Positions 2,204 to 29,370 of a DNA stretch of 32,000 nucleotides are shown in pieces. Both the position numbers and the translations under genes were made by a program. The DNA comes from Ruminococcus albus 7 = DSM 20455 (GTDB taxonomy: Bacteria > Bacillota > Clostridia > Oscillospirales > Ruminococcaceae). Where the stretch lies: positions 720,001 through 752,000 of the forward strand of contig NC_014833.1 in the NCBI RefSeq assembly GCF_000179635.2, given 5' to 3'. The stretch's first letter is position 1. Each line of letters begins with the position of its first letter. The notes beneath the pieces are model-generated. The model did no database searches. It was not told where the DNA came from and saw only the letters and a list, made by a program, of their open reading frames with translations.

Positions 2204-2254
2204 AATCAAGCTCCTTTTGGGTGGTATAGTACCGTGTGTTTTTTTGCGGTATAT

Positions 2255-2283: not shown

Positions 2284-2397
2284 TAGCCAAAACGGAGTTA
2301 GGATGTACTAATCTAACTTTGCCCGAAAAGCTTATAAATCGGGGCTCGGGGGCAGGTGAGAAAATTATCGGTAAATTAAAAATTTTTGTAAAAAGAC

Positions 2398-4291: not shown

Positions 4292-4933
4292 CTAACCGAT
4301 ACGGGCGATCGTTCCTGCCTTATCGAAAATGAAAGTGAAATAGAACCGCATCAGGTTATCCACGATCTCATAGAACTGCTTTTTCTTGTCGTTTCGTCGG
4401 TTGATCGGGTCGGTCTTTTGAATGATCTCCATGTCGAGCAGTTCCTTCATCACTGTGATATATGAATCGCAGAGCACCAGTTTGACATTTTCAGGCAGTC
4501 TGTCGATGACCGCCTGCATATACGAATCTACTTCGTTCTTCTTTTTGGTCTGCTTGAGGTAGGGGTATTCGTCGATGATGAGAAGTATCTTTTTGTCAAG
4601 CGTTTTCAGGTGATCCATAATCTCAAAGAGATCGCCGAAGCGGATATTCGGCAGTCCGAGCCCCTCCGAAACGCTCCGGTAGATCAGCTCCATATTGCCC
4701 TCAAAGGAGCTTGTCACGCACATATGGTTGATGACAACACCCTCAAAGCGCTTTGCAGCTTCGCTCAAAAGCGTGGATTTTCCGACTCTGCACTTGCCGT
4801 AGACCAGCACCGCCGTCCTGCGTTTCCATGAGGAAAGCTCGGCGTTTAACTGCCTGAGTTCTTTTTCTCTGCCGGATATTATGCTACAGTGCTTTGCTGT
4901 TGTTAAGTTTCTGAATAAAAATTCAGTGAAAAG
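4292..4933 (-). pseudogene. Truncated AAA+ ATP-binding protein (ATPase fragment)
   Basis: Walker A VLVYGKCRVGKSTLL and Walker B-like KILLIIDEYPYL are present. The conserved upstream segment ISGREKELRQLNAELSSWKRRTAV is in frame (open to the TAA at 4936-4934), but it has no ATG/GTG/TTG before the GTG at 4810. The product is far shorter than I recall for relatives with this N-terminal architecture. This suggests decay at both ends. Confidence 0.5.
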
Positions 4934-9863: not shown

Positions 9864-9936
9864 TACCTGCGATCAAATAAAAAACACAGCCGCTTATGCG
9901 GCAGAACAATGAGAGTTTTCAAGGAGGTATTTGAAA

Positions 9937-10290
9937 ATGGCTGAAACAATTCAGGATGTAGGAACAATGGGTACTCAGGGTACTGTGAACATGTCAACTC
10001 AGATGATGACAGATGCGCTGAAGGCTATCGAAGCATACAAGGGAGCTATCGAAACTGCATTTAATAATCTGAACACACAGTACGCTAACGTTACATCAAA
10101 CTTTACAGGTGATGCTGCTAACGGTCTGCAGGAATTCTATACAAACAAGATAGAGGCTATGCTGAAGCAGGAGGACGGCAGCGTATATCAGCTGCTGAAC
10201 GCTCTGAAGGGCTTCTGTGAAGCTGCACGCGATCAGATCCCCGGCGAGACAGGCGTAGACAATGAGCTTGGTAAAGTCAACAGACAGTGA
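9937..10290 (+). CDS. WXG100-family-like protein with a degenerate motif (F-T-G)
   Basis: 117 aa. Very strong RBS AAGGAGG 9 nt upstream. Helix-turn-helix layout, with NFTGDAANGLQEFY at the position and context of W-x-G-x-A. C-terminal tail GVDNELGKVNRQ. Confidence 0.7.
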   Translation: MAETIQDVGTMGTQGTVNMSTQMMTDALKAIEAYKGAIETAFNNLNTQYANVTSNFTGDAANGLQEFYTNKIEAMLKQEDGSVYQLLNALKGFCEAARDQIPGETGVDNELGKVNRQ

Positions 10291-10697: not shown

Positions 10698-10742
10698 GCA
10701 GCAGGTATGTCCTGTGGACATACTGCTGCATACTGCTTTTCA
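10698..10742 (+). terminator. Hairpin plus short T-tract after the esx-like pair (terminator/attenuator)
   Basis: GCAGCAGGTATGTCC (10698-10712), loop TGTG, GGACATACTGCTGC (10717-10729; one bulged base), then ATACTGCTTTT. Confidence 0.45.
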
Positions 10743-10880
10743 ATTATATATGGCAGTAATTTGTCTGATAGCTTTGAAGTTGTTCTGTTTTGTAAGCGGT
10801 GCTTTGTATTCATTAAAGTTATCAGTTTTTTAGTTTTTTGGATAGTATTTCTGTGTAGGCAAATAAATGAGGTGGAATTA

Positions 10881-12044
10881 ATGGCTTTTCGGGTATTGAG
10901 TGAAGAAGAGATAGAGAGATTGACTCCCGATCAGAGAGATATCTATGAATACAATTTAGATATGTATCTTAAAAGAGTACGCTTTGTAGAGAATCTTGAG
11001 AGGTTGGCTAAAGTCAAGTTTGGCGAGATAAAACTGGATCTCAAGCCTATTCCGAAAACGCTCAAGCCGGCTGAAGTTAACTTCAAGGAGATCGAAAAGA
11101 AGCCTGTTGCTGCACCGAAAGTACCGGTACCGCAGGTGAGATCGGGAGAATATAAAGTGCCCGAAATGAAGAAACCCGAGGGTTACAAGGTGTTTGTGCC
11201 TTCTGTCGGTGCACATAAGTATATTGCACCGGAACCTGTAAAGGTCAAGGGCTTCAAGGTAGTGACTCCGGAAGTAAACAAGGGTGAGTATAAAAAGCCC
11301 GAGATGCCTGTGATCGGGGAGATAAAGAAGGTAGTACCCGAAGTAAGCAAGGTAGAATTCAAAAAGCCTGAGATGCCTGCTATCGGGGAGATAAAGAAGG
11401 TAGTACCCGAAGTAAGCAAGGTAGAGTTCAAAAAGCCTGAGATGCCTGCTATCGGGGAGATAAAGAAGGTAGTACCCGAAGTAAGCAAGGTCGAATTCAA
11501 AAAGCCTGAGATGCCTGCTATCGGGGAGATAAAGAAGGTAGTACCCGAAGTAAGCAAGGTCGAATTCAAAAAGCCTGAGATGCCTGCTATCGGGGAGATA
11601 AAGAAGGTAGTACCCGAAGTAAACAAGGTAGAATTCAAAAAGCCCGAGATGCCTGCTATCGGGGAGATAAAGAAGGTAGTACCCGAAGTAAGCAAGGTAG
11701 AGTTCAAAAAGCCTGAGATGCCTGCTATCAGGGAAGTAAAGACGGTAGTGCCCGAGGTAAGCAAGGTTGAATTCAAAAAGCCTGTTAGGGCGGCTGTGCC
11801 TCATGTTAAGGTGGTCGTACCCGAAATATCTCTCGGTGAGGCAGGCAAGATAGCGAGAATGCCTTCGGTACCAGCAGTAGAACCTGTAGTACCCGAAGTG
11901 GCATCGGTAAACTTTGTTAAGCCCGAGATAGCAAAACCGGTGGGCGTAAAAGTAGTAGTGCCAAAGATAAGCGCCGATATCGAGTCGGAAGCTGCAGAGA
12001 TCCTGAAAAAATTGCGGAGTGAGTTAGCGAATGAAAAACAATGA
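10881..12044 (+). CDS. Pro/Glu/Val/Lys-rich tandem-repeat protein (387 aa), translationally coupled to essC
   Basis: Start moved to ATG 10881 (GAGGTGG upstream). The ORF-track start at 10707 would read through the terminator hairpin. There is an about 60-aa helical N-terminal domain, and the rest is 23-aa KKPEMPAIGEIKKVVPEVSKVEF-type repeats. No signal peptide or TM helix. The stop overlaps the essC ATG by 14 nt. Confidence 0.7.
   Translation: MAFRVLSEEEIERLTPDQRDIYEYNLDMYLKRVRFVENLERLAKVKFGEIKLDLKPIPKTLKPAEVNFKEIEKKPVAAPKVPVPQVRSGEYKVPEMKKPEGYKVFVPSVGAHKYIAPEPVKVKGFKVVTPEVNKGEYKKPEMPVIGEIKKVVPEVSKVEFKKPEMPAIGEIKKVVPEVSKVEFKKPEMPAIGEIKKVVPEVSKVEFKKPEMPAIGEIKKVVPEVSKVEFKKPEMPAIGEIKKVVPEVNKVEFKKPEMPAIGEIKKVVPEVSKVEFKKPEMPAIREVKTVVPEVSKVEFKKPVRAAVPHVKVVVPEISLGEAGKIARMPSVPAVEPVVPEVASVNFVKPEIAKPVGVKVVVPKISADIESEAAEILKKLRSELANEKQ
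11292..11774 (+). repeat. Seven near-identical in-frame 69-bp tandem repeats
   Basis: Unit starts at 11292, 11361, 11430, 11499, 11568, 11637 and 11706. Copies differ by a handful of mostly synonymous changes (GTA/GTC, GAA/GAG, CCT/CCC), one Ser/Asn change, and diverged first and last units. Degenerate copies extend to roughly 11150 and 11960. Confidence 0.95.
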
Positions 12045-15000
12045 GATAATGGTTTCGGCACGATTTTCAAAGAAAGACGGAGATGCTTTTGTAAAGTCGC
12101 GCGAGCTGACATTTCTTGTATTGAAAAGCATAACCCTGCGTGAGCTGACAGAGGGAATATTCTACGGTCTGAGGAAAAAAGCCAAAAGTGGTTTCGACTT
12201 CGGTGATGTTGAGCTTTCAATGACTGAGTGCTATGAGATAATGAAGGAGTATTTGCAGAAATATCCTTTTATCAATATTAAGTACAAGTCCATAGGATTT
12301 ACTGATTGCAAGGATATCAAGCAGGAGCTGATCACGGAAAGCTGTATTGATTTCAACAGGATCATCGCAGATTATGACGGCGAGGAGAATGTTAAGATAT
12401 ACGATCTTACGCTGGAAGAACTTGGTATAGTTACGGCTTCGGTGCTTGATTTCAGGCTTGATGCTGTTAAAGCGGCAGGACCATATATATTTACAGACAG
12501 TGATGATAAGCAAATGACATCGCCGTCTTATGTTGTAAAGGAGAAGAATCTGGAATACAACATAAGTACACGTGATATAAACGTTGTTGAGCCTTCGGTG
12601 ATAGAGATAGCACCTGCGGGAGAATATCCCAAGATAGAGGGCGGCGCGCTGGGCGGTTCGATGCTTACATCTATGATATCCATTATGATGGGTGTCGGTA
12701 TGCGTGTCGGTATGCGCTATATGGGCGGAAACTCTATGGCAACAATGGGTAATTCCATGATAATCATGTCGGTGGGAATGGGTCTTGTATCCGCCACGAC
12801 CATGCTTGTAAACGGCATAAGCCAGCGAAGGAAGTCCATACGCAACGCTGATGACTGGGTGAGCAACTACGAATCTTACGTACTGAAAAAACTCAAGCAG
12901 ATAGAGGATTATCAAAGACAGGATATACAGTACATGAAAACTGTATACCCAAATGTGGACAAGCTATTTGACGGTGTGCGAAATGCTTCGGATGCTATAT
13001 TCTCACGTTCGCACAATGATGATGACTATCTTATGATATCCCTTGGACAGTCAAGGCAGATAGAGCCTATGTTCACTATAAGTGCAGAGAAAAAAGATGA
13101 GGGTCTTTCTGAGCCTATAACTTACAGGCTGGAACAGATCGTAAATCCGACGAACGATACTCACTTTGTTTTCAGGATAGATCAGCCCGATGAAAAGGCA
13201 AGGACGAAACTGCGCAAGACACAGCGAAAGCTGCGCAAAAAGGATAAGAAAAAGGGTACGACGGAGCTTAAAAACATCGTTGATGTCAATAACTCTGACG
13301 AGCTGCTGCTTTCGGAGCTGGCTTATGATCTGGCGCACAATGATCCTGCGGACATAAGCACTACGGATAACAGCGCCAACACAAGAAACAGGGTAGGTTT
13401 CAGATATCTGAGGGATTACAGGAATCCCAAGAATCTGCCTCCACTGCTTTTTGAGATGAAAAACTGCGGTGCACTTGGCGTTATATATGATCCTGTCAGC
13501 GAAGAAACGGTGAAGAACGAAGGCGATCCTGCGCTTAATTTTATACGTCATGTGGTGTTTGAACTTTCGTATTATCATTCGCCTGAGAATCTGCAGTTCG
13601 TATTCTTTTTCAAGCGCACGAACGATATTGACGAGCGTGACCGCACTATCGAGAACTACAAGTACCTTCCGCATACAAACGAGTTGTTTGGAAATTCCCT
13701 TTCGCAGTTCGTATTCGATAAGAAGAGCGCCGGTGATGTGTACAGTGCGCTGTTCGGAATAATGAACGAGAGAAGCGGAAGCATAAAGACTGGTGATGAT
13801 AACGGTGACGGCGGCGATGAAAAATCCGAGGATCCGAATTTCACGCAGATAGTCTGCATAATGTTTGACGACTACGATATCAAGGAAACGGTGTTTTCAA
13901 GATTTCTGCCCGAACCCCCGAAGCAGGGTGAGGATTTCAAGAACAAACTGGGATTGTCTTTTATATTCCTGAAAGACAAGAAGGGTATGCTGCCTAAATA
14001 CTGCAGCAGTCTGATAGAGCTTTGCACAGGTCCGAGAGGTGAGCTGACAAGGCGCTACAACGTACTCTCCCGTGAAACACTGGCACACAACAGTAATGCT
14101 GCAGATACAAGCAGTATGGTGGATAAAAAGAGATTTGAGAGCGATTACCTTTTCAAGGATCATTTTCAGTATCTTGATCATAACAACAATACCTGCAGGG
14201 TCGATGTCAAGAAAGATTTCGGCACTGCTTACAGGCAGCTGAGTTCGCTGTACTACAAGCGTATAGCTGAAAACGGCAAGGTGCCTGATGTGGTATCACT
14301 TTTTGAGATATGGGGGATAGACCAGGAGGCTGTCACGGATGACCCTGCACAGAGCAAGGTGTACACTATGATAAAGGACTACTGGGATTCTCCGCAGAAC
14401 GATATCACCAAGGGGCTCAGTGTGCCAATAGGCAAGAACGAGCATGGCGTCACTTATCTGGATATGCACCAGAACGGTGACGGACCTCACGGGCTTGTTG
14501 CGGGTACTACAGGTTCAGGTAAGTCAGAGACACTGATAACCTATGTTATCGGCTGCTGTATGAAATACAGGCCAGATGAGCTGAACTTCATGCTGGTAGA
14601 TATGAAGGGCGGCGGCTTTTCTGACAGACTTGGCAATCTGCCGCATCTGGTCGGCGCTGTTACCAATACCACAGGTGAGGCTGAGGGTATCGCGCCCGAG
14701 TATATGCTGAAGCGATTCCTGGAAACGCTGAATGCCGAGATAAAGAGGCGCGAAGTAGTTCTGAAAGAACTTGATACGGATAATATAGATTCGTATATGA
14801 GGACTAGAAAGACCGTCCTGAAATACCGCGAGGAGATACAGAACGGTACAAGGACGCTGACCTCGATAAAGAAAGAATTCATAAACAAAGATAACAGGAT
14901 AAAAGCTTGTGATCCCGAAAACCCCGAACCCAAACCGCTTTCACATTTGCTTTTGATAGTGGACGAGTTTACGGAGCTGAAAAGATTTTCAAGCGAGAGC

Positions 15001-15561
15001 AACGATATAGATTTTATCAAGGATATAACCACCATCGCCCGTGTGGGCAGAACTCTGGGATTCCATATCATACTGGTGTCACAGAACATTGAGGGTGCTA
15101 TAACCGAAGATATACGTGTAAACTCCAAGGCGAGGATATGTCTGAAGGTGGCTACTAAGAGTGCATCAAAGGACATGATAGGTACGCCCGATGCGGCTGC
15201 GGCAACTATGCCGGGACATGGCAGAGCGTACATACTGGTAGGTACGGGAAGCAGATACGAGTATTTCCAGTCTGCATACACCGGTGCCAACAGGAACCTG
15301 TCCATCAAGGGAGATGTCAATATGACATTAGTGCCTGAATGCGGCGGATTTGATGACAGTTTCTATAATTCCAAAAAGGACAATATCAGAATGGCAAGAC
15401 AGAACAAGAATGTCAATGAGGATGACAATCAGCTCAACTACATCATCAACACGATAAATGCGCTGAAAGATGATTATGAGCCGTCAATACAACTGTTCCT
15501 CAATCCGCTGAAGGCTGATGTTGATTCGGTGATGGACAAGACAGAATGGGAGGGTATCTGA
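12031..15561 (+). CDS. essC: T7SS FtsK/SpoIIIE-family ATPase, EssC/EccC-like, part a (N-domain, 2 TM, degenerate ATPase-like region, first canonical P-loop domain)
   Basis: Gly/Met-rich TM pair: GGALGGSMLTSMISIMMGVGM...IIMSVGMGLVSATTMLV. Walker A: PHGLVAGTTGSGKSETL. Walker B: HLLLIVDEFTELK. Also ARVGRTLGFHIILVSQ and GHGRAYILVG, typical of FtsK/SpoIIIE translocase domains. RBS GGAGTGAG. Confidence 0.85.
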   Translation: MKNNEIMVSARFSKKDGDAFVKSRELTFLVLKSITLRELTEGIFYGLRKKAKSGFDFGDVELSMTECYEIMKEYLQKYPFINIKYKSIGFTDCKDIKQELITESCIDFNRIIADYDGEENVKIYDLTLEELGIVTASVLDFRLDAVKAAGPYIFTDSDDKQMTSPSYVVKEKNLEYNISTRDINVVEPSVIEIAPAGEYPKIEGGALGGSMLTSMISIMMGVGMRVGMRYMGGNSMATMGNSMIIMSVGMGLVSATTMLVNGISQRRKSIRNADDWVSNYESYVLKKLKQIEDYQRQDIQYMKTVYPNVDKLFDGVRNASDAIFSRSHNDDDYLMISLGQSRQIEPMFTISAEKKDEGLSEPITYRLEQIVNPTNDTHFVFRIDQPDEKARTKLRKTQRKLRKKDKKKGTTELKNIVDVNNSDELLLSELAYDLAHNDPADISTTDNSANTRNRVGFRYLRDYRNPKNLPPLLFEMKNCGALGVIYDPVSEETVKNEGDPALNFIRHVVFELSYYHSPENLQFVFFFKRTNDIDERDRTIENYKYLPHTNELFGNSLSQFVFDKKSAGDVYSALFGIMNERSGSIKTGDDNGDGGDEKSEDPNFTQIVCIMFDDYDIKETVFSRFLPEPPKQGEDFKNKLGLSFIFLKDKKGMLPKYCSSLIELCTGPRGELTRRYNVLSRETLAHNSNAADTSSMVDKKRFESDYLFKDHFQYLDHNNNTCRVDVKKDFGTAYRQLSSLYYKRIAENGKVPDVVSLFEIWGIDQEAVTDDPAQSKVYTMIKDYWDSPQNDITKGLSVPIGKNEHGVTYLDMHQNGDGPHGLVAGTTGSGKSETLITYVIGCCMKYRPDELNFMLVDMKGGGFSDRLGNLPHLVGAVTNTTGEAEGIAPEYMLKRFLETLNAEIKRREVVLKELDTDNIDSYMRTRKTVLKYREEIQNGTRTLTSIKKEFINKDNRIKACDPENPEPKPLSHLLLIVDEFTELKRFSSESNDIDFIKDITTIARVGRTLGFHIILVSQNIEGAITEDIRVNSKARICLKVATKSASKDMIGTPDAAAATMPGHGRAYILVGTGSRYEYFQSAYTGANRNLSIKGDVNMTLVPECGGFDDSFYNSKKDNIRMARQNKNVNEDDNQLNYIINTINALKDDYEPSIQLFLNPLKADVDSVMDKTEWEGI

Positions 15562-15564
15562 CAG

Positions 15565-17439
15565 ATGACGGAAAGCATCATAGTTCAACTTGGAAAATAC
15601 GATGTTCCCATTCTGCAGAAGCAGCCTGATTTTGAGGTCGATCTGCTGAAGTCGAACATACTCCTGTTCGGTTCACCCCAGAGCGGCAAAACTAATCTTA
15701 TAAGGCTGATAATCAATATCCTTCACAAGAAGATGAATGTAGAGGACGAGCAGATATTCATACTCGATTTCGGCGGCGCACTGGCTGATTATCAGACTAT
15801 GCCGCTGGTATCAGCGTATTTTGACAATTCCAATGAGGAGTACGTAAAGCGTGTTTTCAAGATACTGGAAACCAAGCTGAAAGAAAACACAAGGGCTTTG
15901 CAGGGTGTGGGATTTGCTGCTAAAAAGGAAGGTCAGCCAAGGCATATAACTTTTTTTATAGACAACTTCAATTCATTCCTTGATGAACCGAGATATCAGG
16001 GCTATCAGGAAAAGTTTGCAAGACTTTGCCGTGACGGTCTGTCGAAAGGTATCTCCGTAGTGGTGACTGCATCGGAGAACAAGGGAATGACTTCATACAT
16101 CAATAACCTTGGGCAGAAGATCGCTCTCAACCTTTCTGATGACAGGTACGGTGAGATCTTCGGCGGAAAGGTATCAAGCATAGGAAACATACCCGGACGC
16201 GGTTTTGCGAATATTACCATGAGACTTCGCGAAAAGGACCGCAAGGGGAAGTATCACGAGATAACGGGTACCTACAACATAAACTCGCCCTATGAGATAC
16301 ACTGCAGCTTCGCAGAGGATATAAACAAGGGTGATTTCAGGATAAATCTCCACAAGAAATTTCAGTACGATGCAGATAAGAAGTGCTTCGGTAAAGAGGT
16401 GGAGAAGTACAAGATATTCCCGCAGACCTTCGGTGTGGCTGAATACTATCATCAGCTGGAGGGCGAACAGGATATAACCGATCCGCAGTATGAAGTTGCT
16501 GTTGGGCTGGACTATGTAGATTTCAAGCCTGTTGTGGTCAATTTCAAGGATTCACGTTTTCTGGCGGTATACGCTAAGCGAGGTGCCGGACAGGATCAGC
16601 TTCTGGACAGGATCGTTACTAACCTGATGGAACATGACACAAGAAAGCTTGTACTCTTTGATGACGGACGCGGTCAGCTGAAGATGCTCAAAGATAAGTT
16701 CCCGGCGGCAACGTACATATCACAATATGTGGCTAGGAGCGAGCTGGAGAAGGAAAAGCCGAAAGAGCCCGAACCTGTGGTGTCCGCGGCATCAGCTATG
16801 ATGGGTGGTAGGACATCGGCAGGCGGAAGCTTTTTCAGCGGGCAGAAGGCTGAGCCGAGATTCGCGAAGCCCCCCGAGATAAGCAAGCCTGTGATACCTC
16901 AGGGATCAAAGCTTTCACCTATGCAGCAGCTTATAAAATACATACACGAGGAATGCGTGGATGTGGGCAACTTTGCGAGCCTGCTTTACACGGGCAAGGA
17001 GTATCTTTCCATGCTGGAGAGAAATCCGAATGTGCCTATAGGGTGCCTGGATACTTTCCGTGACCCGACGGTATTCGTGCTGCACAGCAAGCTGGTATAC
17101 AGCTCGGTGCGGGAAAACAAGCAGTTCCTTGAATACATCATGCCGATACTTTCCGATATGGCGGAGGAAAGAGATTACATATTCATATTCTCAGACGTAA
17201 GGAAAATGTCGGACATCGAGATGAATGATAAGTTCAATACTCTGGTACACACGGCATTCGTGCTTGATAATATCGCGGAGTTCGTATCGGAGAAAGGACA
17301 GAAGACCATATTCGGTGATCTCGATGTAAAGATGCTGAAAGCAGATTACGCGCTCTGTGAAAAGGGCGATGGTTATTATTATGACGTAGAGGCGGACAGC
17401 CTGAAAAAGTTTAAGATGATACAAGAGGAGGATTTCTGA
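15565..17439 (+). CDS. essC: EssC/EccC-like ATPase, part b (one canonical and one degenerate nucleotide-binding domain)
   Basis: Walker A NILLFGSPQSGKTNLI with ITFFIDNFNSF. The second domain has a degenerate P-loop FLAVYAKRGAGQDQLL (no Lys-Ser/Thr). It is in the same reading frame as part a, separated only by TGA-CAG. GGGAGGG lies 10 nt upstream of ATG 15565. Confidence 0.8.
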   Translation: MTESIIVQLGKYDVPILQKQPDFEVDLLKSNILLFGSPQSGKTNLIRLIINILHKKMNVEDEQIFILDFGGALADYQTMPLVSAYFDNSNEEYVKRVFKILETKLKENTRALQGVGFAAKKEGQPRHITFFIDNFNSFLDEPRYQGYQEKFARLCRDGLSKGISVVVTASENKGMTSYINNLGQKIALNLSDDRYGEIFGGKVSSIGNIPGRGFANITMRLREKDRKGKYHEITGTYNINSPYEIHCSFAEDINKGDFRINLHKKFQYDADKKCFGKEVEKYKIFPQTFGVAEYYHQLEGEQDITDPQYEVAVGLDYVDFKPVVVNFKDSRFLAVYAKRGAGQDQLLDRIVTNLMEHDTRKLVLFDDGRGQLKMLKDKFPAATYISQYVARSELEKEKPKEPEPVVSAASAMMGGRTSAGGSFFSGQKAEPRFAKPPEISKPVIPQGSKLSPMQQLIKYIHEECVDVGNFASLLYTGKEYLSMLERNPNVPIGCLDTFRDPTVFVLHSKLVYSSVRENKQFLEYIMPILSDMAEERDYIFIFSDVRKMSDIEMNDKFNTLVHTAFVLDNIAEFVSEKGQKTIFGDLDVKMLKADYALCEKGDGYYYDVEADSLKKFKMIQEEDF

Positions 17440-17777
17440 TGGCAGACGAGTTTGTAGTAGATGACAGCGTATTCAAGTCCGTTGATATAACTAAAATTGC
17501 AGCTTTTATAAATAAAGCACCGGGGCTTGTAGATGAGTTTGAAAAGATCAAAGAAGACTTCAATAATGTCAATAGTGAGCTGCTGGCTATCTGGGTAGGC
17601 GAAGGCGCTGATGAGTACAAGCAGGAAACAGATCATATCCTTGAAAAGATAGGTGACCTGAAAACTACGATAGAAGCGATCAATTCGACTACTCTCGCGG
17701 ATATAAGAAAGCAGTTCAGCGACGCTGACGATGAGCTTGGCAAGTTCAATAGGCAACAAGCCAGTGACGGGGAATAA
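17439..17777 (+). CDS. WXG100 family protein (canonical W-V-G)
   Basis: 112 aa with LLAIWVGEGADEYKQ in the central turn. The ATG overlaps the essC-b stop (TGATG). C-terminal DADDELGKFNRQQASDGE. Confidence 0.8.
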   Translation: MADEFVVDDSVFKSVDITKIAAFINKAPGLVDEFEKIKEDFNNVNSELLAIWVGEGADEYKQETDHILEKIGDLKTTIEAINSTTLADIRKQFSDADDELGKFNRQQASDGE

Positions 17778-17962: not shown

Positions 17963-19900
17963 TTGGAGCATCGCAGCTTTATGCAGATACACGGCACTAA
18001 ATTCACTTACACGATAGATACCAGCTATGAAGATCTGTACAGATACGGCGATGGTTTTATCGCACGCGGTACAGAGAGTATAGTATACAAAGGCATAAGA
18101 GCGGCGGAGGGTATCTCCAGCGAGAACATCCGCATGAGCTGTGTGCTCAAATTCAAGCGCAGAGGTATCAATGACAGGATACTAAGGCGTTTCAAAAGCA
18201 AGGATCTGAAGATATTCAATGATCTTCAGGGCTGCCGTTCGGTCGTAAGGATATACGATCTTATAGAGGATCTTGGTGATTTTTCTATCAGGTTTGAACA
18301 CGTGGCTGAGGGTGAGGAAGAATTCTACATAGACCGTCACGGATTTTTCTGTGTGGTCGAGGAATTTATCGAGGGCAAAACTCTTGAAGAATTCTGTCTG
18401 GAATACGGTGAGTTCCCTCTGGTCATGAGAACAAAGACGGCTGTTACGGGGTATGATGATTACAGCGATGAAAACAAGGAACGTACAAGAAAGTATGTTA
18501 CGGACAATGATTTCTGTCTGCGCTTTCAGAGTGTGATATACAACTTCGCTGTAAAGCTGTGTGATGTGCTGGATTATATGCACAGGAACAGGATACTCCA
18601 CATGGATATAAAGCCCGATAATATCATGATAACAAATGCGGGCGATGAGGTAGTGCTTATTGACTTCGGCAGGGCGAGCTACATGGATTACGGCAAGGAT
18701 TACGTAACGGTGCAGTTCGGCGGAGAAAGTGCCGAGGAGTACGGTACAGTGGGATATGCAGCGCCTGAGGCGTATAATCCCGTGATGGTCCCTCATGCAC
18801 ACTTTACCTCTGAAAATATGAACGGTGAGCTGGAGAATGGCTGTCGTCTGACAGTGGAGAGCGATATCTTTTCACTTGGCGCGACGCTGTGGGAATGCAT
18901 GAATATATTTGTACTCTACATGAACAATACAGAGTACCGCAAGAAATTCTCAAACGGTTATCACTATCAGCGTTTTTTTGATACACCGGCGATGCTTAAT
19001 GAGGATGCATACTGCAACCGTGATCTTTCGCTGGCTTCGGTGCATTTTTATGAAAAACTGGAGCAGATAATCAAAAAGGCGACAAGATCCAGGACCCATG
19101 ATTATTATGACAAGGACAACAAGAATTATTATCACGACTACGCATCGCTGAGGGATGATATAATAGATGCAAAGGAACGTTCACCTGCGGTGCTGAGGAC
19201 TGATGATATAAAGGTGCGTAATTCCTTTACTGTCAGTGCAGTCTTTATGGGGCTGCTGACGACACTTCTGTGTTTTCTCGGATTTTTGTATTTCTTCGGC
19301 GGCTATTTTGCAGAGAAGAAGATAGATACCATTATGGAAAGCTATCAGGTCTCAAAGCATGATGCGCTGAGAAAGGCTGCAAAGGAGCAGATGAAGGCGA
19401 CAGATCCTGAGGGCAGGAAGGGTATTTACGAGAAAATATACGATTTTTATTATAATGAAAATGACGGTGCTGATACAAAGGGCATGAGTGCTGAGGAGGC
19501 TGAGGATCTGGCACAGCTGCTGGATCTGATACCTGACAAGAGGTATTCACGGGAGAAGTTCGATGAGCTTCTTGGCAATACCGACAGGCAGGTACTCATG
19601 GTATTCTCGGAATATGCTGCAGCTGCAGATCTTGATATCAAGGATGACAGCGAATGTATCAGCTATGAGATACTGGAGAAGATATACGAGTCAAGACAGC
19701 CGCGATATGCAAATGATTGCTATGAGGTGCTTGTAAAGTACGGTGACAGGAATGAGTACCGCAATTTACTGGTATACCTTGCGAAGCAGCTGAATACTGA
19801 CGAAAAGATCGACAAGATAGTTGAACAGCAGGAAAGTGACGAGCCTGATGCTATCGTCAGACGTGCTGTCAGGGATAATCTTGAAAGCTTTGAGGAATGA
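17963..19900 (+). CDS. Membrane-anchored Hanks-type Ser/Thr protein kinase (non-RD) with a C-terminal helical domain
   Basis: Kinase subdomains are readable: RGTESIVYKG (G-loop-like), CVLKFK (Lys), VVEEFIEGKTLEEF, ILHMDIKPDNIMI (HxDxKxxN), LIDFGRA (DFG), GTVGYAAPEA (APE) and ESDIFSLGATLWE. Single TM helix VSAVFMGLLTTLLCFLGFLYFFGGYF at about residues 425-450. TTG start at 17963, or ATG at 17981. Confidence 0.8.
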   Translation: MEHRSFMQIHGTKFTYTIDTSYEDLYRYGDGFIARGTESIVYKGIRAAEGISSENIRMSCVLKFKRRGINDRILRRFKSKDLKIFNDLQGCRSVVRIYDLIEDLGDFSIRFEHVAEGEEEFYIDRHGFFCVVEEFIEGKTLEEFCLEYGEFPLVMRTKTAVTGYDDYSDENKERTRKYVTDNDFCLRFQSVIYNFAVKLCDVLDYMHRNRILHMDIKPDNIMITNAGDEVVLIDFGRASYMDYGKDYVTVQFGGESAEEYGTVGYAAPEAYNPVMVPHAHFTSENMNGELENGCRLTVESDIFSLGATLWECMNIFVLYMNNTEYRKKFSNGYHYQRFFDTPAMLNEDAYCNRDLSLASVHFYEKLEQIIKKATRSRTHDYYDKDNKNYYHDYASLRDDIIDAKERSPAVLRTDDIKVRNSFTVSAVFMGLLTTLLCFLGFLYFFGGYFAEKKIDTIMESYQVSKHDALRKAAKEQMKATDPEGRKGIYEKIYDFYYNENDGADTKGMSAEEAEDLAQLLDLIPDKRYSREKFDELLGNTDRQVLMVFSEYAAAADLDIKDDSECISYEILEKIYESRQPRYANDCYEVLVKYGDRNEYRNLLVYLAKQLNTDEKIDKIVEQQESDEPDAIVRRAVRDNLESFEE

Positions 19901-19913
19901 GAGGTGTGATAAA

Positions 19914-20273
19914 TTGAGATTGGGTCTGTTATCGAAGCTGGCAGAACTGCTTGGAGCATATTTTAAGCATGGCAGGAAGCCGTTCCTGATAACGGTGGGC
20001 ATTTCGATGTTCCTGCTCGGTTCGGCAATAGCTGCGTTAAGGTTCACAGGTAAACTTGAACGTATCATAAACGAATGGGATATTCGTTATAATTCCGCTG
20101 CATTGATATTGATGGTGAAGATATTCATCGGTGCGGCAGTTGTGTTTTTCTTGTATGCGGTGTACATCGGCTTGAAAAAGTACAGGAGGTATTCTTCTGT
20201 TGGCAAGCCTTACATGAAAGGCACATCTTACAAGGCATTCAGTAATATATTGTTCAATGAGAATAAAAATTGA
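19914..20273 (+). CDS. Small 2-TM membrane protein (119 aa)
   Basis: TTG 19914 with GAGAGGTG 7 nt upstream. The ORF-track start at 19821 would overlap the kinase gene. TM helices: FLITVGISMFLLGSAIAAL and ALILMVKIFIGAAVVFFLYAVYIGL. Confidence 0.5.
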   Translation: MRLGLLSKLAELLGAYFKHGRKPFLITVGISMFLLGSAIAALRFTGKLERIINEWDIRYNSAALILMVKIFIGAAVVFFLYAVYIGLKKYRRYSSVGKPYMKGTSYKAFSNILFNENKN

Positions 20274-20290
20274 AGGAGAGGGGAAGATAT

Positions 20291-23200
20291 ATGACTATCG
20301 CCAAGCGGATATTATCGATGGTGGCAGCACTTTCGATAATTTCTAACAACAGCATCCCTATGGGGCTGATCAACTCAAGCGGTGAAAATTCGTCGAACAG
20401 GGGATCGGTGGAGAATAACAACAGATTTGAATCTGATGAACTGACTACATCAGACGAGGTGACTACGGACGAACAGACTCGCAGTAAGTCTGTGCACCAA
20501 AACGCTCCTAAGTTCTATTGTACGCCCCATGTTTCGAGCAACTGGGTAAAGAAACTCTCTGGCTGGGAGATGTTAAAGACCGATGATGGTGCAAGTATTT
20601 ATTTCAGACTGTCGGATGAATCTTTTTCGCCTGATGCATCTGATATAAGAACAGGTCTGGCAGCATCTTACAGCGACACTTCTAATCTTCAGCAGGGCAA
20701 TAAGTACGTATGCTTTTATGCCAAGTGGAATGATACTGAAGATGAGAGCAAAATAGCGATATCACCTGTATTGAACTATAAGCTGGATAAAGATCCGCCT
20801 GACGAATTCAGAATCGGATACGGTACTATCGGATATTGGCCATATATCATGCCGATTATCAGAAATGGCTCGCCTATCAAAGATCAGGTTTCGGATATCG
20901 ACAAGATCTATTATTCTGTAGGAACCAAATATGAAAAGGATAATGATATACAGGATCCGAAAAAAACCAAGCTTCTTGATAAGCACAATGCAGAAGGCGG
21001 CGGATATGATATCTGCATACCATGTACTTCGGATATCCTTTTCAAGAATGTATATGTCTATGCTTATGACATGAGCGGTAATCTTACCACTTCGGAAGTA
21101 TTATTTGTTAATGATATTGACAACCCTGTTGTGGAATATAAGGGCGCTTGCAATATAATCAAAAAGACAGAAGATAAAGAAGAGTATACAGAAGAGGAAC
21201 CCTTCAGACATGAGTACGGTGATGACAGGGTAAAGGATAACAAGCACACCGATTATACCTATGTCAGTGGTGTTTCCTACTTAAAGGTAAAGGTCACCGA
21301 TTCAAACAGAGATAATTGCAAGGTGACAGTCAAATGGGGTTCAAAGGACGATGAGTTCAAAAAATTCAACATATCCGAACTTCATGTGCCCAAAGATATA
21401 GAGCCTGAAAAGGACGTGGTATACATACCGTTCTCAGAGCTGGGTCTGGAAGATTCCGCGAAGCATGGCATTTATCAGTTCACTATAGAGGCAAGTGACG
21501 GATGCTATCCCGCAGAACCTTGTCACACCGATGCGGATGTATTCTTCTGGTACTCAAAGTCAAATGACGGTGATGTTATCTCCACATTTAATATCCCGGG
21601 TGAACATAAAATAAGACCTTATGATTTTGAATCCAAACTTGAAGACAGTGTAACAGCATACCTTTTTGACAAGACCGAAACAGGCAACAAGCTGATATTT
21701 ACTCTTAAAGATGATGTGGGTATCGCTGAGTATTCTGCACATATTACTAAAGATGGTAAGGAGTTTATGCCTGAGCGCCGGGTCGATCTGAGAGATGGTA
21801 TTGTTACGAAGGGCGAAGACGAAACTACCGGTGAAGTTGTATATTACTCAGTGCCCAAAACTGAAATAAGATCGGAAGCGATCGATGTAGATCAAAACGG
21901 CACTTATGCGGTGCATATAGAACTTCTCGATTTTGAAGGAAACAAACAGACATACGATCACAGATTTATAGTAGATACAGAAGCGCCTGTGATTAAGGGT
22001 AATGATTACACTGCAAACAAGGAACTGAATTATACTAAAGACGGTATCTACGCAAACAATGAGTTCGATCTGACTATAGTGCCTGAAAATGATCTGAGCG
22101 GTATAGATCCTTCTAAGGTATTGCTCAAAATAGATGACATCACCAAGAGAACGGCAGAATTAGAAGAAGGCAATCTGGTATTCAAGGGAATAAAAGATGA
22201 TTGCTGCGGTGAGATATCTATCGTTATCCCGGATAAGGTGGGTAATAAGAACACTTATTATTTTAAGACAGTTGATAATAATAAGACTGTGATGACCGGT
22301 GAAAAGCTTTCATTGAATGTTCCTACAGGTGTAGTTCTTCAGGTCGATAGTACTGCGCCTCAGCTGATCCGTAAAGCAGTGGGTGAAAAAGTAGAAATAG
22401 TTGATGGAGAAGATGGTTCAGAGATACCGTACTTTGGTGCCGGAGAGGGCAATTATTTTGAATTCACATTCAAGGAAGATAAGGGACTCAGATCACACAA
22501 TATAGTTTTCCATAATGATGACGGCAGTGAGATAGATGGTCATGGTGATTCGGAAGACTATACCAATGAGGAAAAATATCCATCTCCTGTCATGGAGGCA
22601 GGTCCTGTGAAGATACCTGTTGATATGGAATCAGGCAGATATACCATAGACGGAAGTGTGACCAATCTGGCAGGTGCAACTGTTAATCTGAACAACGGAG
22701 GAACCAACAGCAAAGAAGTATTTGAATTCTATGTTGATAAGATTGCACCTCAGATCGAAAGTGTGGATTTCAGATCAAGTGATCAAGACGAAAATAAGAA
22801 AAGCCTGATGAATTTTACCAGGTTTGGTATTTTCGGCAAAGAAAAAGTCGATCTGGTAATAAATGCTAAGGATAATCCTTATGGTATAGGTGTTGATAGT
22901 GCTACGCTTATGTGGGGCGAGACCCTTGAAAGCAAAGATAAGGGCTATACTGTCAAAGCTGACAATAACGGCGTAATAGTATTTAAAGATCTTGCACCTA
23001 TAAGAACAGGTGTACCTCATCTGGTAGTCAGAGATAGACTGGGTAATGAGAACAACTACTATTTCACAGCTAACTCATTAAACAAAGATCCGGGTAAGAT
23101 CATAATGGAGGACCCTGAAAATGCTGAAGAGCATCTTTCCATGACACTTGAAAATGGTGCTCCTTTTGTAGATCTTATAGTTGAAAATAAAGAAGCCGTG

Positions 23201-27479: not shown

Positions 27480-27536
27480 TATTGTGATAAACTTTCAGCA
27501 AAAAAATGGTGATAAATTTATGAAAGGGTGGGTTCT

Positions 27537-29370
27537 ATGGATTATAATAAGATCGCAGCTGAGATACTTGATGCGATAGGCGGAAAAGCGAACCTTGCAA
27601 GTGCAGCACACTGCGCTACACGTTTAAGGCTGGTGATAGCTGACAACAGCAAGGTAGAAAAATCTGTGCTGGAAGGCATTGAAGGTGTGAAGGGTGTTTT
27701 CGAGGCATCGGGACAGCTTCAGATAATCCTGGGAACAGGTACTGTTAATAAGGTGTATGCCGAATTCATACAGCTTGCAGGAATAGAAGCTGCTTCAAAG
27801 GAAGATGTGAAGAAAGCGGCAGCTGCAAAGTCTCCCTGGTATAAGAGGGGTATCAAGACACTTGGTGATGTATTCGTACCTATCATACCTGCGATAGTTG
27901 CAACAGGTCTGCTGTGCGGACTGTTTGGCGGTCTTTCAAGAGCGTTCCCGAGTATGGCGGACAGCCACCTGTATACACTGCTGGATATGTTCTCAAATGC
28001 AACGCTGACATTCCTGCCTATACTTATAGCTGTAAGTGCTGCAAAGGTATTCGGTGCAAACATCTATCTGGGTGCGGTCATAGGTATGATAATGATACAC
28101 CCGAGTCTTGTAAATGCATGGGATTCAGTCAATCTGAAGACACTTTGGTCGTGGGGATTCTGGAAAATCAACAATTCAGGTTACCAGGGTCACGTTATAC
28201 CCGTAGTCATCGCGATACTTCTTCTGTCAGTCATTGAAAAATGGCTGCACAAGCACGTACCCGAGATGTTCGATCTCTTCGTTACACCTCTGGTATCCGT
28301 TCTTGTAACAGGATTCCTTACAATGACCGTTATAGGCCCTGTATTTGCTCAGGTCGAATCTTGGGTACTTACCGGTGCACAGTGGCTCATCGCTCTGCCT
28401 TTCGGTATCGGTTCGTTCATTATGGGTGCTGTGTATGCTCCAACTGTAGTAGCAGGCGTTCACCATATGTACAACGCTATCGAGCTTTCCATGCTGGCTG
28501 ACAGCGCCAAAAACATCTGGGATGCCAATCGCTACCGCTGCAAACGTAGCACAGGGTGCTGCTGCACTGGCGGTAGCAGTCAAGACTCAGAACAAGAAGC
28601 TCAAGTCTATGGCTCTCCCTGCATCTCTTTCCGCATTCATGGGTATTACCGAACCTGCTATCTTCGGTGTCAATGTACGTTTCGGCAAGCCTCTGGTAGC
28701 AGGTATGGCAGGCGGTGCCTGCGGCGCAGCAGTAGCTTCTATCATGAACGTTTATGCAACCGCAAGCGGCGTTACAGGTATATTCGGATTCCTGATCACT
28801 ACGGATAGCTTCCTTGGTTATCTGCTCACATTTGCAGTAGCGGCAGTTGTAGCATTCGTTCTTTCGTGGATACTCTATGCTCCCACAAAGGAAAAAGTTC
28901 CTGAAAAGAATTACAAAGACAACTGTGTATACTCTCCTATGAGCGGCAGAGCTATCGCTCTGGAAGAAGTTCCCGATAAGACATTTGCATCAGGCACACT
29001 CGGACAGGGCGCAGCCATTGATCCTATGGATGGCAAGGTAGTTGCACCTGCAGACGGCAAGGTATCCACACTCTTTGATTCTCATCACGCTGTTGGCCTT
29101 ACATTGGATAACGGAATGGAACTGTTTGTACATATCGGTATGAATACTGTTGAACTCGGTGGTGAAGGCTTTGATGCTTTTGTTAAGGAGGGTGACAGGG
29201 TAAAACGCGGAGATACCCTCATAACCTTTGATATCCAGACTCTGAAGAACAAGGGATACAGCGTCATAAGCCCTGTTATCATAACAAATTCCGAGAAATA
29301 CAAGGATATCCGCAGAACAACTGACGGCGGAATAAACTACTTTGATGAACTGCTTGAAACAACCAAGTGA
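27537..29370 (+). pseudogene. scrA: PTS sucrose/beta-glucoside-family EIIBCA, interrupted by a +1 frameshift near 28519-28521
   Basis: EIIB: ASAAHCATRLRL. EIIC: multi-TM, ...GVHHMYNAIELSMLADSAKNIW. The frame then switches and continues as MPIATAANVAQGAAALAV...ITEPAIFGVN. C-terminal EIIA(Glc)-type: DKTFASGTLGQGAAIDP...HAVGLTLDNGMELFVHIGMNTVEL. Removing one G from GGG (28519-28521) gives a seamless NIWMPIATAAN. Confidence 0.8.

What the first reader, a model, noticed from the sequence alone, without database searches (positions are those of the whole stretch)
12031..17439. EssC is divided by a single in-frame TGA at the D1/D2 boundary, as in mycobacterial EccCa/EccCb
ORFs 12031..15561 and 15565..17439 share a reading frame and are separated only by TGA-CAG before an ATG. 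The break falls after the first canonical P-loop domain (GTTGSGKSETL / LIVDEFTELK). It falls before the next one (GSPQSGKTNL). This is the same position as the natural split of EccCa1/EccCb1 in mycobacterial ESX-1.

A GGGAGGG lies 10 nt upstream of the second ATG, which favours a genuine two-subunit enzyme made by coupled re-initiation. A recent nonsense mutation or stop-codon readthrough would give the same sequence. The window holds two other clearly broken genes (scrA, scrB), so decay must be considered.

The last domain has a degenerate P-loop (AKRGAGQDQ). That is consistent with a substrate-binding, non-catalytic D3.
Basis: partly seen in the sequence, partly recalled or inferred. Interest (0 to 1): 0.7.

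Follow-up and report, generated by a model that had tools for sequence, protein, structure and literature searches.

The report
Conserved two-gene type VII secretion ATPase
The motor ATPase of a type VII protein-secretion system in this Ruminococcus albus-like genome is really encoded as two adjacent, translationally linked genes; the split is old and shared by dozens of gut and rumen Clostridia lineages, and it arose independently of the similar split in tuberculosis bacteria.

Summary
ORF 12031..15561 (1176 aa) and ORF 15565..17439 (624 aa) share a frame and are separated by TGA-CAG. GGGAGGG lies 10 nt before the second ATG.

It is not a nonsense mutation, a sequencing error or decay. In 85 of 86 related loci (54 lineages after dereplication) the D1-containing gene ends and a separate D2-D3 gene starts at this point. 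The gap ranges from -11 to +18 nt. In 46 of the 54 lineages the two genes are in different frames, so the shared frame here is incidental.

GGAGG lies 7-11 nt before the second start in 40 of 54 lineages, against 1% background. It is written into the last codons of gene A as W-E-G or W-R.

All 120 best homologues of each half are stand-alone proteins of the matching size. The model of B matches EccC/EssC "ATPases 2 and 3" structures.

The break lies in the same D1-D2 linker as mycobacterial EccCa1/EccCb1, but 35-90 residues further downstream. It is therefore an independent fission.

The D3 P-loop is degenerate only in the R. albus subclade. The ATPase has no FHA domains, and its N-terminus looks ubiquitin-like.

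I found no published description of this split system.

The parts
12031..15561 (+). Gene A (EssCa/TsxCa-like, 1176 aa). It holds an N-terminal beta-grasp-like domain, two TM segments, a degenerate ATPase-like region, catalytic domain D1 and a linker tail.
   Evidence: ORF. Pfam FtsK_SpoIIIE E=1e-24 at residues 807-1019. NCBIfam EssC model positions 221-761 and EccCa model. PDB sequence hits to YukB, EccC and EccC5 D1. All 120 best homologues are 1071-1212 aa.
12031..12465 (+). N-terminal cytoplasmic domain of A (about residues 1-145). Predicted beta-grasp/ubiquitin-like fold. No FHA domain.
   Evidence: AF2 model: mean pLDDT 72 over the whole 203-residue model, most 10-residue blocks of residues 1-150 at 78-95, two at 69 and 47. 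Foldseek PDB hits are all beta-grasp or Ubl domains, with weak scores (E about 1e-3). No Pfam or PDB sequence hit.
12640..12819 (+). Two hydrophobic segments (A residues 204-231 and 239-263), taken as the membrane anchor.
   Evidence: Kyte-Doolittle scan: the only windows above 1.3 in A; B has none.
14503..14535 (+). D1 Walker A, GTTGSGKSETL.
   Evidence: Aligned to the D1 P-loop of YukB.
14953..14982 (+). D1 Walker B, LIVDEFTELK, with the catalytic D-E pair.
15541..15558 (+). C-terminal tail of A, T-E-W-E-G-I. The W-E-G or W-R motif is conserved in split relatives and absent in fused ones.
   Evidence: T. curvata EccC has WEWRG at the aligned linker position.
15548..15554 (+). Shine-Dalgarno sequence GGGAGGG for gene B, embedded in the W-E-G codons of A.
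   Evidence: GGAGG lies within -20..-4 of the B start in 40 of 54 lineages, against 1% of 17-nt windows inside A coding sequence. The spacer is mostly 7-11 nt.
15559..15564 (+). TGA stop of A plus the 3-nt spacer CAG.
   Evidence: The same TGA-NNN-ATG junction occurs in R. albus AR67 and in other assemblies with 83-96% identity (L005-L012).
15565..17439 (+). Gene B (EssCb/TsxCb-like, 624 aa). A soluble D2-D3 module.
   Evidence: ORF. NCBIfam EssC model positions 784-1154 and EccCb model. All 120 best homologues are 569-641 aa and cover about 99% of B. The AF2 model matches 4n1a (EccC ATPases 2 and 3, E=1e-24) and 4lya (EssC ATPases 2 and 3).
15670..15699 (+). D2 Walker A, GSPQSGKTNL.
   Evidence: G41 and K42 are invariant in alignment A1.
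15946..15978 (+). D2 Walker B-like ITFFIDNFNSF. It reads D-N, not D-E, so it probably binds ATP without hydrolysing it.
   Evidence: D133 and N134 are invariant. T. curvata D2 aligns with vvDNw at this position.
16573..16599 (+). Degenerate D3 P-loop, AKRGAGQDQ.
   Evidence: This alignment column reads YGKKEFGKT in most relatives. It is degenerate only in the window's subclade.
16783..16908 (+). Subclade-specific low-complexity insertion in D3 (B residues about 393-448).
   Evidence: Alignment gaps in the other relatives. pLDDT below 50 at residues 393-442.
10707..12044 (+). Conserved upstream 445-aa gene. It overlaps the start of A by 14 nt.
   Evidence: The same gene order occurs in L001, L002 and L005.
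17439..17777 (+). WXG100-like 112-aa gene. Its ATG overlaps the TGA of B by 1 nt (TGATG), and its SD (GAGGAGGA) lies in the last codons of B.
9931..10290 (+). WXG100-family gene of the cluster.
   Evidence: Pfam PF06013 E=7.6e-06, 26.5 bits against a cut-off of 27.3. Relatives carry the same weak WXG100 flag.
17963..19900 (+). Ser/Thr protein kinase gene, conserved in the cluster.
   Evidence: Pfam Pkinase E=6.5e-21. Conserved position in L001, L003, L005 and L007.
20270..26155 (+). Giant protein of 1961 aa with Ig-like domains, conserved in the cluster.
   Evidence: Pfam Big_13, Big_3_4 and Big_3_2. Conserved position in relatives.

Best explanation
This is a genuine, anciently split type VII secretion motor ATPase.

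Gene A encodes the membrane-anchored half. It has a ubiquitin-like N-terminal domain, two TM helices, a degenerate ATPase-like region, the catalytic D1 with intact Walker A and B, and most of the D1-D2 linker. Gene B encodes a soluble D2-D3 module. D2 has an intact P-loop but a D-N Walker B. D3 is the presumed substrate-receptor domain and has lost its P-loop lysine in the R. albus subclade.

The two genes are co-transcribed. Ribosomes finishing A, or recruited by the GGAGG written into A's last codons, start B 3 nt downstream, which would give roughly matched amounts of the two halves. The halves are inferred to assemble non-covalently into an EccCa/EccCb-like functional unit that drives export of the neighbouring WXG100-like proteins.

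Shown here: the two-gene architecture, its conservation, the conserved SD and the domain content. Inferred: translational coupling, physical assembly, the division of labour between catalytic D1 and receptor D2-D3, and the substrates.
For: 1. Junction survey. 85 of 86 loci have a stop after D1 and a restart before D2. These loci come from Ruminococcus, other Oscillospiraceae, Lachnospiraceae, Mediterraneibacter, Ruminiclostridium and Eubacterium. Acetivibrio was also found in the scan, but its locus starts at the contig end, so its junction could not be scored. After dereplication there are 54 lineages with gaps from -11 to +18 nt. 46 have the genes in different frames and 8 in the same frame. 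All three stop codons are used (TGA 31, TAA 18, TAG 5).
2. GGAGG lies within -20..-4 of the B start in 40 of 54 lineages, against 1% background. It is encoded either as W-E-G (TGG GAG GG) or as W-R (TGG AGG), so the nucleotide motif is kept across different peptide readings.
3. The 120 best homologues of B are all 569-641 aa with about 99% coverage, down to 43% identity. The 120 best homologues of A are all 1071-1212 aa.
4. An exhaustive search of 50%-identity cluster representatives finds stand-alone proteins of 500-650 aa as the dominant form among the nearest clusters. Canonical EssC of about 1500 aa appears only near E=1e-25. A rough NJ tree puts the stand-alone forms in one clade, sister to canonical fused EssC, with a few fused forms nested inside it.
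5. Close relatives from independent assemblies carry the identical TGA-NNN-ATG junction. These include R. albus AR67 and MAGs and metagenome contigs at 83-96% identity.
6. The AF2 model of B matches EccC and EssC "ATPases 2 and 3" structures over its full length: 4n1a E=1e-24 with TM 0.55-0.60, and 4lya E=8e-24.
7. Neighbouring junctions in the operon are coupled in the same way: a 14-nt overlap upstream of A and a TGATG overlap after B, with the SD in B's last codons.
8. Precedent: ESX-1 EccC is split between ATPase1 and ATPase2, and the two products form a functional unit (PMC6954902, PMC2763215).
Against: - There are no expression, proteomic or interaction data, so coupling and assembly are inferred.
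- In the window's own subclade the genes are in frame, and TGA-C is regarded as a weak termination context (from general knowledge, not tested here). Low-level readthrough to an 1801-aa product cannot be excluded for this strain.
- B start codons in relatives were chosen by proximity to the alignment start.
- The NJ tree is crude, with no support values.
- Many loci come from MAGs.
- Both halves score below the curated cut-offs of the EssC and EccC NCBIfam models, so this is a divergent member of the family.
- The same window does contain decayed genes (scrA, scrB).
Confidence: 0.9

Rival explanations
1. A recent strain-specific nonsense mutation inactivated a single-chain EssC, so the downstream part is an untranslated, decaying remnant.
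For: The two ORFs share a frame and are separated by a single TGA. scrA and scrB in the same window are broken.
Against: The stop plus restart is present in 85 of 86 relatives, down to about 43% identity. Most have the genes in different frames or overlapping, which a point nonsense mutation cannot produce. B is full length, and its P-loop and many other residues are invariant across the family. Its homologues are all stand-alone proteins.
Confidence: 0.01
2. A sequencing or assembly error created the stop codon.
For: A single-base difference would be enough. The window has other frameshifted genes.
Against: The A protein is found with 100% identity in an independent ENA cluster of 24 member sequences (P0270). 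The same TGA-NNN-ATG junction is found in R. albus AR67 and in at least five other independent assemblies (L005-L012).
Confidence: 0.01
3. Programmed stop-codon readthrough (or recoding of TGA) makes a single 1801-aa EssC the main functional product, with the stop acting as a regulatory attenuator.
For: The genes are in frame in the R. albus subclade with only one codon between stop and ATG. Here TGA is followed by C, which is regarded as a weak termination context (general knowledge).
Against: The in-frame arrangement occurs in only 8 of 54 lineages, below the one-third expected by chance. Close relatives have TGA-T (L007) or a double stop TAA-TAA (L013, L014). Others use TAA or TAG. TGA also terminates B and the upstream gene in this window, so TGA is an ordinary stop here. 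A strong SD and an ATG are conserved at the restart.
Confidence: 0.03
4. The split is real, but B is not a stoichiometric subunit. It acts as a free cytosolic substrate-receptor or chaperone-like ATPase that docks on A only transiently, or that works with other partners.
For: B has no TM segment. Its first 25 residues are modelled with low confidence. The split has arisen independently in ESX-1, where EccCb1 is a separate protein from the membrane-bound EccCa1 and its C-terminal region binds the substrate signal (PMC6954902).
Against: The tight gene adjacency and the conserved coupling signals suggest co-production in matched amounts. Occasional re-fusions (L044, P0136, P0139, P0141) show that the two halves can work as one chain.
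Confidence: 0.25

Closest known systems
Mycobacterial ESX-1 EccCa1/EccCb1 (T7SSa split ATPase)
   Same: The FtsK/SpoIIIE-type T7SS motor is divided between ATPase domains D1 and D2 into a membrane-bound half (TM, degenerate domain, D1) and a soluble D2-D3 half, encoded by adjacent genes (PMC6954902, PMC2763215). B aligns with EccCb1 D2 by sequence and by fold.
   Different: The break point is not homologous. The EccCa model ends near A residue 1088, and EccCb model positions 7-45 align with the last 34 or so residues of A. EccCb1 residue 55 aligns with B residue 9. The phylum differs (Bacillota, Clostridia), and so does the accessory gene set: no EccB, EccD, EccE or MycP was seen in the window. 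A carries a ubiquitin-like N-terminal domain. Scores fall below the curated cut-offs of TIGR03924 and TIGR03925.
T7SSb EssC/YukB of Bacillota (single-chain, FHA-containing)
   Same: It is the best sequence match for D1 (YukB 9qks, E=3e-51). The match to NCBIfam TIGR03928 is colinear. It is associated with WXG100 genes. The D2-D3 fold matches Geobacillus EssC.
   Different: EssC is a single polypeptide of about 1500 aa with two N-terminal FHA domains. Here there are two genes, no FHA hit, a beta-grasp-like N-terminus and a total of 1800 aa. The bit scores are 388 and 130 against a cut-off of 778. In the rough tree the canonical EssC clade is sister to the stand-alone clade.
T7SSc-T7SSj variants (Garrett, Higginson and Palmer 2024, PMC11217815)
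   Same: These are Bacillota T7SS gene clusters with a TsxC ATPase, WXG100 proteins, a membrane Ser/Thr kinase (TsxD) and, in T7SSd, e and j, a very large Ig-like protein (TsxI). Some TsxC proteins lack FHA domains (T7SSc, g, h). The window has a kinase and a 1961-aa Ig-like protein in matching positions.
   Different: The paper describes no split ATPase, and neither its main text nor its supplements held as text mention Ruminococcus, Lachnospiraceae, Ruminiclostridium or Mediterraneibacter. The subtypes with kinase plus TsxI have FHA-containing ATPases, whereas this one has none. Here the ubiquitin-like module appears fused to the ATPase instead of being a separate TsxB. Correspondence of the accessory genes was judged from the paper's descriptions only and was not tested by sequence.

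Membership tests
T7SS EssC/EccC-type (TsxC) FtsK/SpoIIIE ATPase | Tandem FtsK/SpoIIIE P-loop ATPase domains D1-D2-D3, colinear with EssC/EccC | tested here: met
   A covers EssC model positions 221-761 and B covers 784-1154. Pfam FtsK_SpoIIIE hits both halves. The model of B matches EccC and EssC ATPases 2 and 3 over its full length.
T7SS EssC/EccC-type (TsxC) FtsK/SpoIIIE ATPase | Score above the curated equivalog cut-off of TIGR03928 (778.4 bits) | tested here: not met
   387.9 bits for A and 129.8 bits for B. This is a divergent relative, not an equivalog by NCBI's criterion.
T7SS EssC/EccC-type (TsxC) FtsK/SpoIIIE ATPase | N-terminal membrane anchor (two TM helices) before the ATPase domains | tested here: met
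   Two hydrophobic segments at A residues 204-231 and 239-263 by hydropathy scan; none in B. No dedicated TM predictor was available.
T7SS EssC/EccC-type (TsxC) FtsK/SpoIIIE ATPase | Genomic linkage to WXG100-family genes | tested here: inconclusive
   ORF 9931-10290 hits PF06013 with E=7.6e-06 but 26.5 bits, just under the 27.3 cut-off. ORF 17439-17777 hits with E=0.007. The same small genes are conserved beside the ATPase in relatives.
T7SSb EssC (Bacillota, canonical) | Two N-terminal FHA domains | tested here: not met
   No FHA family in the Pfam scan of A or of 17 N-terminal segments. The AF2 model gives a beta-grasp-like fold.
T7SSb EssC (Bacillota, canonical) | Single polypeptide carrying D1-D3 | tested here: not met
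   Two genes in 85 of 86 loci.
Split EccCa/EccCb-type T7SS ATPase | Gene break between D1 and D2, with both halves kept as separate conserved genes | tested here: met
Split EccCa/EccCb-type T7SS ATPase | Break at the same (homologous) linker position as actinobacterial EccCa/EccCb, implying common descent of the split | tested here: not met
   The EccCa model ends near A residue 1088. EccCb model positions 7-45 align to the last 34 or so residues of A. EccCb1 residue 55 equals B residue 9. The offset is 35-90 residues.
Split EccCa/EccCb-type T7SS ATPase | The two products interact and act as one functional unit | not testable with these tools
   This needs co-purification or genetics. The only indirect support is the tight gene coupling and the occasional re-fusions.
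Split EccCa/EccCb-type T7SS ATPase | Scores above the curated cut-offs of TIGR03924 (509) and TIGR03925 (346.6) | tested here: not met
   214.5 and 105.2 bits.

The most novel reading that the evidence does not exclude
The window belongs to an uncatalogued T7SS subtype that is widespread in rumen and gut Clostridia (Oscillospiraceae, Lachnospiraceae and relatives). Its hallmarks are:
- an ATPase split into a Ubl-fused, FHA-less membrane half and a detachable D2-D3 half;
- a TPR protein;
- two WXG100-like proteins;
- a Ser/Thr kinase;
- a giant Ig-like envelope protein.

The D1|D2 fission arose independently of ESX-1. That would point to a general functional advantage in making the D2-D3 substrate receptor a separate subunit, for example cytosolic cargo capture before docking on the motor.
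Probability: 0.45. Interest if true: 0.65.

Novelty: new variant of a known kind. Interest (0 to 1): 0.5.

Why it matters
Split EccC was known from mycobacterial ESX-1, and nothing in the searched literature treats it as more than a peculiarity of that system. This result shows a second, independent fission in the same inter-domain linker. It is fixed across a large and diverse clade of commensal Clostridia, and a ribosome-binding site has been selected inside the last codons of the upstream gene. The D1/D2 joint therefore looks like a natural module boundary of T7SS motors.

The result also supports models in which D2-D3 acts as a separable substrate receptor. It gives an experimentally tractable natural comparison, because the same clade holds split forms and rare re-fused forms.

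In practice it tells annotators not to flag these gene pairs as pseudogenes. It also points to a T7SS gene-cluster type in rumen and gut bacteria that the current T7SSa-j catalogue does not appear to include.

Tried and rejected
- Nonsense mutation, sequencing error and decay: rejected on comparative grounds.
- Stop-codon readthrough or TGA recoding: rejected as the conserved mechanism. The frame relation is not conserved, TAA, TAG and double stops occur in relatives, and TGA ends neighbouring genes.
- Homology of the split with ESX-1: rejected, because the break point is offset by 35-90 residues.
- An internal promoter or terminator at the junction: the consensus scan found nothing near 15500-15600, and overall counts were at chance level.
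- Sequence-level identification of the N-terminal domain of A (FHA or YukD): no Pfam or PDB sequence hit. Only weak fold-level similarity to beta-grasp domains was found.
- Literature searches for a described split EssC in Clostridia or Ruminococcus found nothing relevant. A first search attempt failed on a syntax error.
- The metagenome contigs and viral-contig scans, and the phage, plasmid and E. coli collections, were not used. They were not needed.


Full report
**1. Observation**

The ORF table lists 12031..15561 (+, 1176 aa) and 15565..17439 (+, 624 aa). The junction reads GAA TGG GAG GGT ATC TGA CAG ATG ACG. TGA is at 15559-15561, followed by one codon (CAG) and then ATG at 15565. GGGAGGG sits at 15548-15554, 10 nt before the ATG. 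Translating 12031-17439 in one frame gives a single internal stop.

**2. What the two ORFs encode**

- A matches Pfam FtsK_SpoIIIE at residues 807-1019 (E=1e-24), and B matches it at residues 23-122.
- Against NCBIfam, A covers positions 221-761 of the 1296-position EssC model TIGR03928 (E=1e-115). B covers positions 784-1154 (E=7e-38). A also hits the EccCa model and B the EccCb model. All these scores are below the curated cut-offs.
- In the PDB, D1 of A is closest to B. subtilis YukB (E=3e-51), then to T. curvata EccC and EccC5.
- B residues 9-215 align with D2 of T. curvata EccC, Geobacillus EssC and Mtb EccCb1.
- An AlphaFold2 model of B (mean pLDDT 71) matches "EccC (ATPases 2 and 3)" 4n1a at E=1e-24 with TM 0.55-0.60. 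It matches "EssC (ATPases 2 and 3)" 4lya at E=8e-24, both over the full length.
- A has two hydrophobic segments at residues 204-231 and 239-263. B has none.

So A holds the N-terminal domain, the membrane anchor, a degenerate region and catalytic D1 (Walker A GTTGSGKS, Walker B VDEF). B is a soluble D2-D3 module. The Walker B of D2 reads IDN, which is invariant in the family and mirrors the D-N of T. curvata D2.

**3. Is the split real or an accident?**

- The 120 best database homologues of B, from 96% down to 43% identity, are all 569-641 aa and cover about 99% of B.
- The 120 best homologues of A are all 1071-1212 aa.
- Gene neighbourhoods of distant relatives show the same pair side by side. 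In a Ruminococcus sp. genome (L001, whole-protein identity of B 45%) the genes are 1084 aa and 577 aa and overlap by 4 nt in different frames. In L003 (62% identity) there is an 18-nt spacer.
- A scan of one genome per species returned 79 loci. They come from Ruminococcus (including R. albus AR67 at 96-99% identity, which identifies the window's organism), other Oscillospiraceae, Lachnospiraceae, Mediterraneibacter, Eubacterium, Ruminiclostridium hungatei and Acetivibrio straminisolvens.
- I located the end of the D1 gene and the start of the D2 gene in every fetched locus that contains both. 85 of 86 have a stop between them, and only L044 is a continuous ORF.
- After dereplication at 90% identity there are 54 lineages. 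The gaps run from -11 to +18 nt. The commonest forms are a 4-nt ATGA/GTGA/TTGA overlap (14 lineages) and a +1 gap (9 lineages).
- The frames differ in 46 lineages and coincide in 8. All three stop codons are used.

A point nonsense mutation cannot create overlapping out-of-frame genes. The in-frame arrangement of the R. albus subclade is therefore incidental. Independent assemblies of close relatives carry the identical TGA-NNN-ATG junction (L005-L012), and the A protein exists with 100% identity in an independent ENA cluster. This excludes a sequencing error.

**4. Translational coupling signal**

GGAGG occurs within -20..-4 of the B start in 40 of 54 lineages, against 73 of 7097 (1%) 17-nt windows inside A coding sequence. 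The spacer is mostly 7-11 nt. The motif lies in the last codons of A, either as W-E-G (TGG GAG GG, 18 lineages) or as W-R (TGG AGG, 20 lineages). The nucleotide motif persists while the peptide reading changes, which points to selection at the RNA level.

Fused relatives (L044, P0136, P0139, P0141, P0194) mostly lack the motif at the aligned position; only P0136 keeps a tryptophan there. One caveat: single-chain T. curvata EccC has WEWRG at the aligned linker position, so the tryptophan may also have a structural role.

The neighbouring junctions in this operon are built the same way. The upstream 445-aa gene overlaps A by 14 nt, with GGAG 11 nt before A's ATG. The WXG100-like gene after B starts at a TGATG overlap, with GAGGAGGA in B's last codons. 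No promoter-like or terminator-like site stands out at the junction.

**5. Evolutionary extent**

- An exhaustive HMMER search of 1.84 billion cluster representatives found 96 proteins at E<=1e-30. Most are stand-alone proteins of 500-650 aa.
- A few are fused forms of 1577-1837 aa, and some are giant multi-ATPase proteins.
- Canonical EssC of about 1500 aa appears only around E=1e-25.
- A rough NJ tree of the D2-D3 region places the stand-alone forms in one large clade, sister to canonical EssC. The fused forms (P0136, P0139, P0141, P0149, L044) are nested inside that clade.
- L044 sits beside a stand-alone protein on a short branch, which suggests a secondary re-fusion. Its junction has neither the W-E-G motif nor an SD.

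The simplest reading is one ancient fission followed by rare re-fusions. The tree has no support values, so this part is provisional.

**6. Comparison with ESX-1**

The literature states that ESX-1 EccC is split between ATPase1 and ATPase2 into EccCa1 and EccCb1 (PMC6954902), and that such split genes form a functional unit (PMC2763215). The domain-level analogy therefore holds. The break site does not.

- The EccCa model ends at about A residue 1088.
- With an artificially joined junction sequence, EccCb model positions 7-45 align to the last 34 or so residues of A.
- Mtb EccCb1 residue 55 aligns with B residue 9.

The actinobacterial boundary thus lies 35-90 residues upstream of this one. 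Together with the phylogenetic distance and the sister relation to single-chain EssC, this indicates an independent, convergent fission in the same linker.

**7. D3**

Only the window's subclade (P0003, P0005, P0009, P0012, P0013) has lost the G-K-T. That subclade also carries an insertion of about 45 residues, modelled as disordered at residues 393-442. The position expected for the D3 Walker B reads VFV(I/L)(Q/H)S in the whole family, with no acidic pair. D3 is thus probably non-catalytic everywhere and has lost nucleotide binding in R. albus. This last step is an inference.

**8. Other features of the system**

- A has no FHA domain. Its first 145 or so residues model confidently (most 10-residue blocks at pLDDT 78-95). 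They match only beta-grasp or ubiquitin-like domains in the PDB, and weakly (E about 1e-3). This suggests a YukD/EsaB-like module fused to the ATPase, but it remains inconclusive.
- The conserved cluster comprises a TPR protein, small proteins including two WXG100-like ones, a 445-aa protein, A, B, a Ser/Thr kinase and an Ig-like protein of about 1950 aa.
- The catalogue of T7SSc-j (PMC11217815) describes kinases and giant Ig-like TsxI proteins in T7SSd, e and j. Those subtypes have FHA-bearing, single-chain ATPases. The paper mentions neither a split ATPase nor these genera. Further literature searches found no description of this system.

**9. Verdict**

This is a two-gene, translationally coupled T7SS ATPase, not a pseudogene. 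The idea of a split EccC is known from ESX-1. What is new is an independent fission at a different linker site, its fixation across a broad clade of Clostridia, and the FHA-less, possibly Ubl-fused architecture in an apparently uncatalogued type of gene cluster. Interest is moderate (0.5). Novelty: new variant of a known kind.

Noticed in passing
window 27528-29370 and 29400-30740: scrA-like PTS gene is broken into 27528..28808 (EIIB plus most of EIIC) and an overlapping out-of-frame ORF 28522..29370 (end of EIIC plus EIIA). The GH32 sucrose-6-phosphate hydrolase gene is broken into 29400..29960 and 29985..30740. A LacI regulator (26355-27347) and a PfkB kinase (30733-31695) are intact. So there is a decaying or mis-sequenced sucrose operon next to the T7SS cluster.
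   Followed up: partly
window 12031-12465: The ATPase has no FHA domains. Its N-terminal 145 or so residues (the conserved start is MKNNEI, followed by an FLVLKDITL-type motif and an LGIVTSS-type motif) are predicted to form a beta-grasp/ubiquitin-like fold. This may be a YukD/EsaB-type module fused to the motor instead of being a separate protein.
   Followed up: partly
window 16573-16599 and 16783-16908: The D3 Walker A is canonical (GKKEFGKT) in most of the family. It is degenerate only in the R. albus subclade, which also gained a disordered low-complexity insertion of about 45 residues in D3.
   Followed up: partly
window 5539-26155; L001, L003, L005, L007: A conserved gene cluster surrounds the ATPase: a 561-aa protein, a TPR protein, small proteins including two WXG100-like ones, a 445-aa protein, a Ser/Thr kinase and an Ig-like protein of about 1950 aa. 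It does not match T7SSb. It resembles T7SSd, e and j only in having the kinase and the giant Ig-like protein. It may be an uncatalogued T7SS subtype.
   Followed up: partly
L044 2632-7818: One Ruminococcus sp. MAG (RUI288) has the two halves fused into a single 1728-aa ORF with no W-E-G/SD motif at the junction. It sits next to stand-alone forms in the rough tree, so it is probably a secondary re-fusion, or else an assembly artefact.
   Followed up: partly
proteins P0183, P0190, P0192, P0198, P0203, P0207, P0210, P0211, P0225, P0269: Distant homologues of 2200-3075 aa match the D2-D3 query in four to eight separate stretches. In the two of these I checked (P0183, P0190), five or six FtsK-like P-loops (GxxGxGK[ST]) are present. 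They appear to be giant multi-ATPase relatives of EssC with unknown context.
   Followed up: no
L037, L063, L078 (Coriobacteriia MAGs); L071, L077 (an 'Alistipes' MAG): The same split-ATPase system appears on contigs binned as Coriobacteriia and Alistipes. This is either binning contamination or horizontal transfer outside the Clostridia.
   Followed up: no
window 15541-15558 versus T. curvata EccC (4nh0) linker: The T-E-W-E-G tail at the end of gene A aligns with 'dgWEWrG' in the D1-D2 linker of single-chain T. curvata EccC. The tryptophan may therefore be an ancient structural linker residue whose codon context was co-opted as a Shine-Dalgarno sequence.
   Followed up: no
window 4292-4810 (-): A 171-aa ORF matches the ATPase_2/AAA_22 profiles only from profile position 24 onward, so it looks N-terminally truncated. 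Next to it are a GGGtGRT-family gene (3183-4181) and a C_GCAxxG_C_C gene (1730-2290, minus strand).
   Followed up: no
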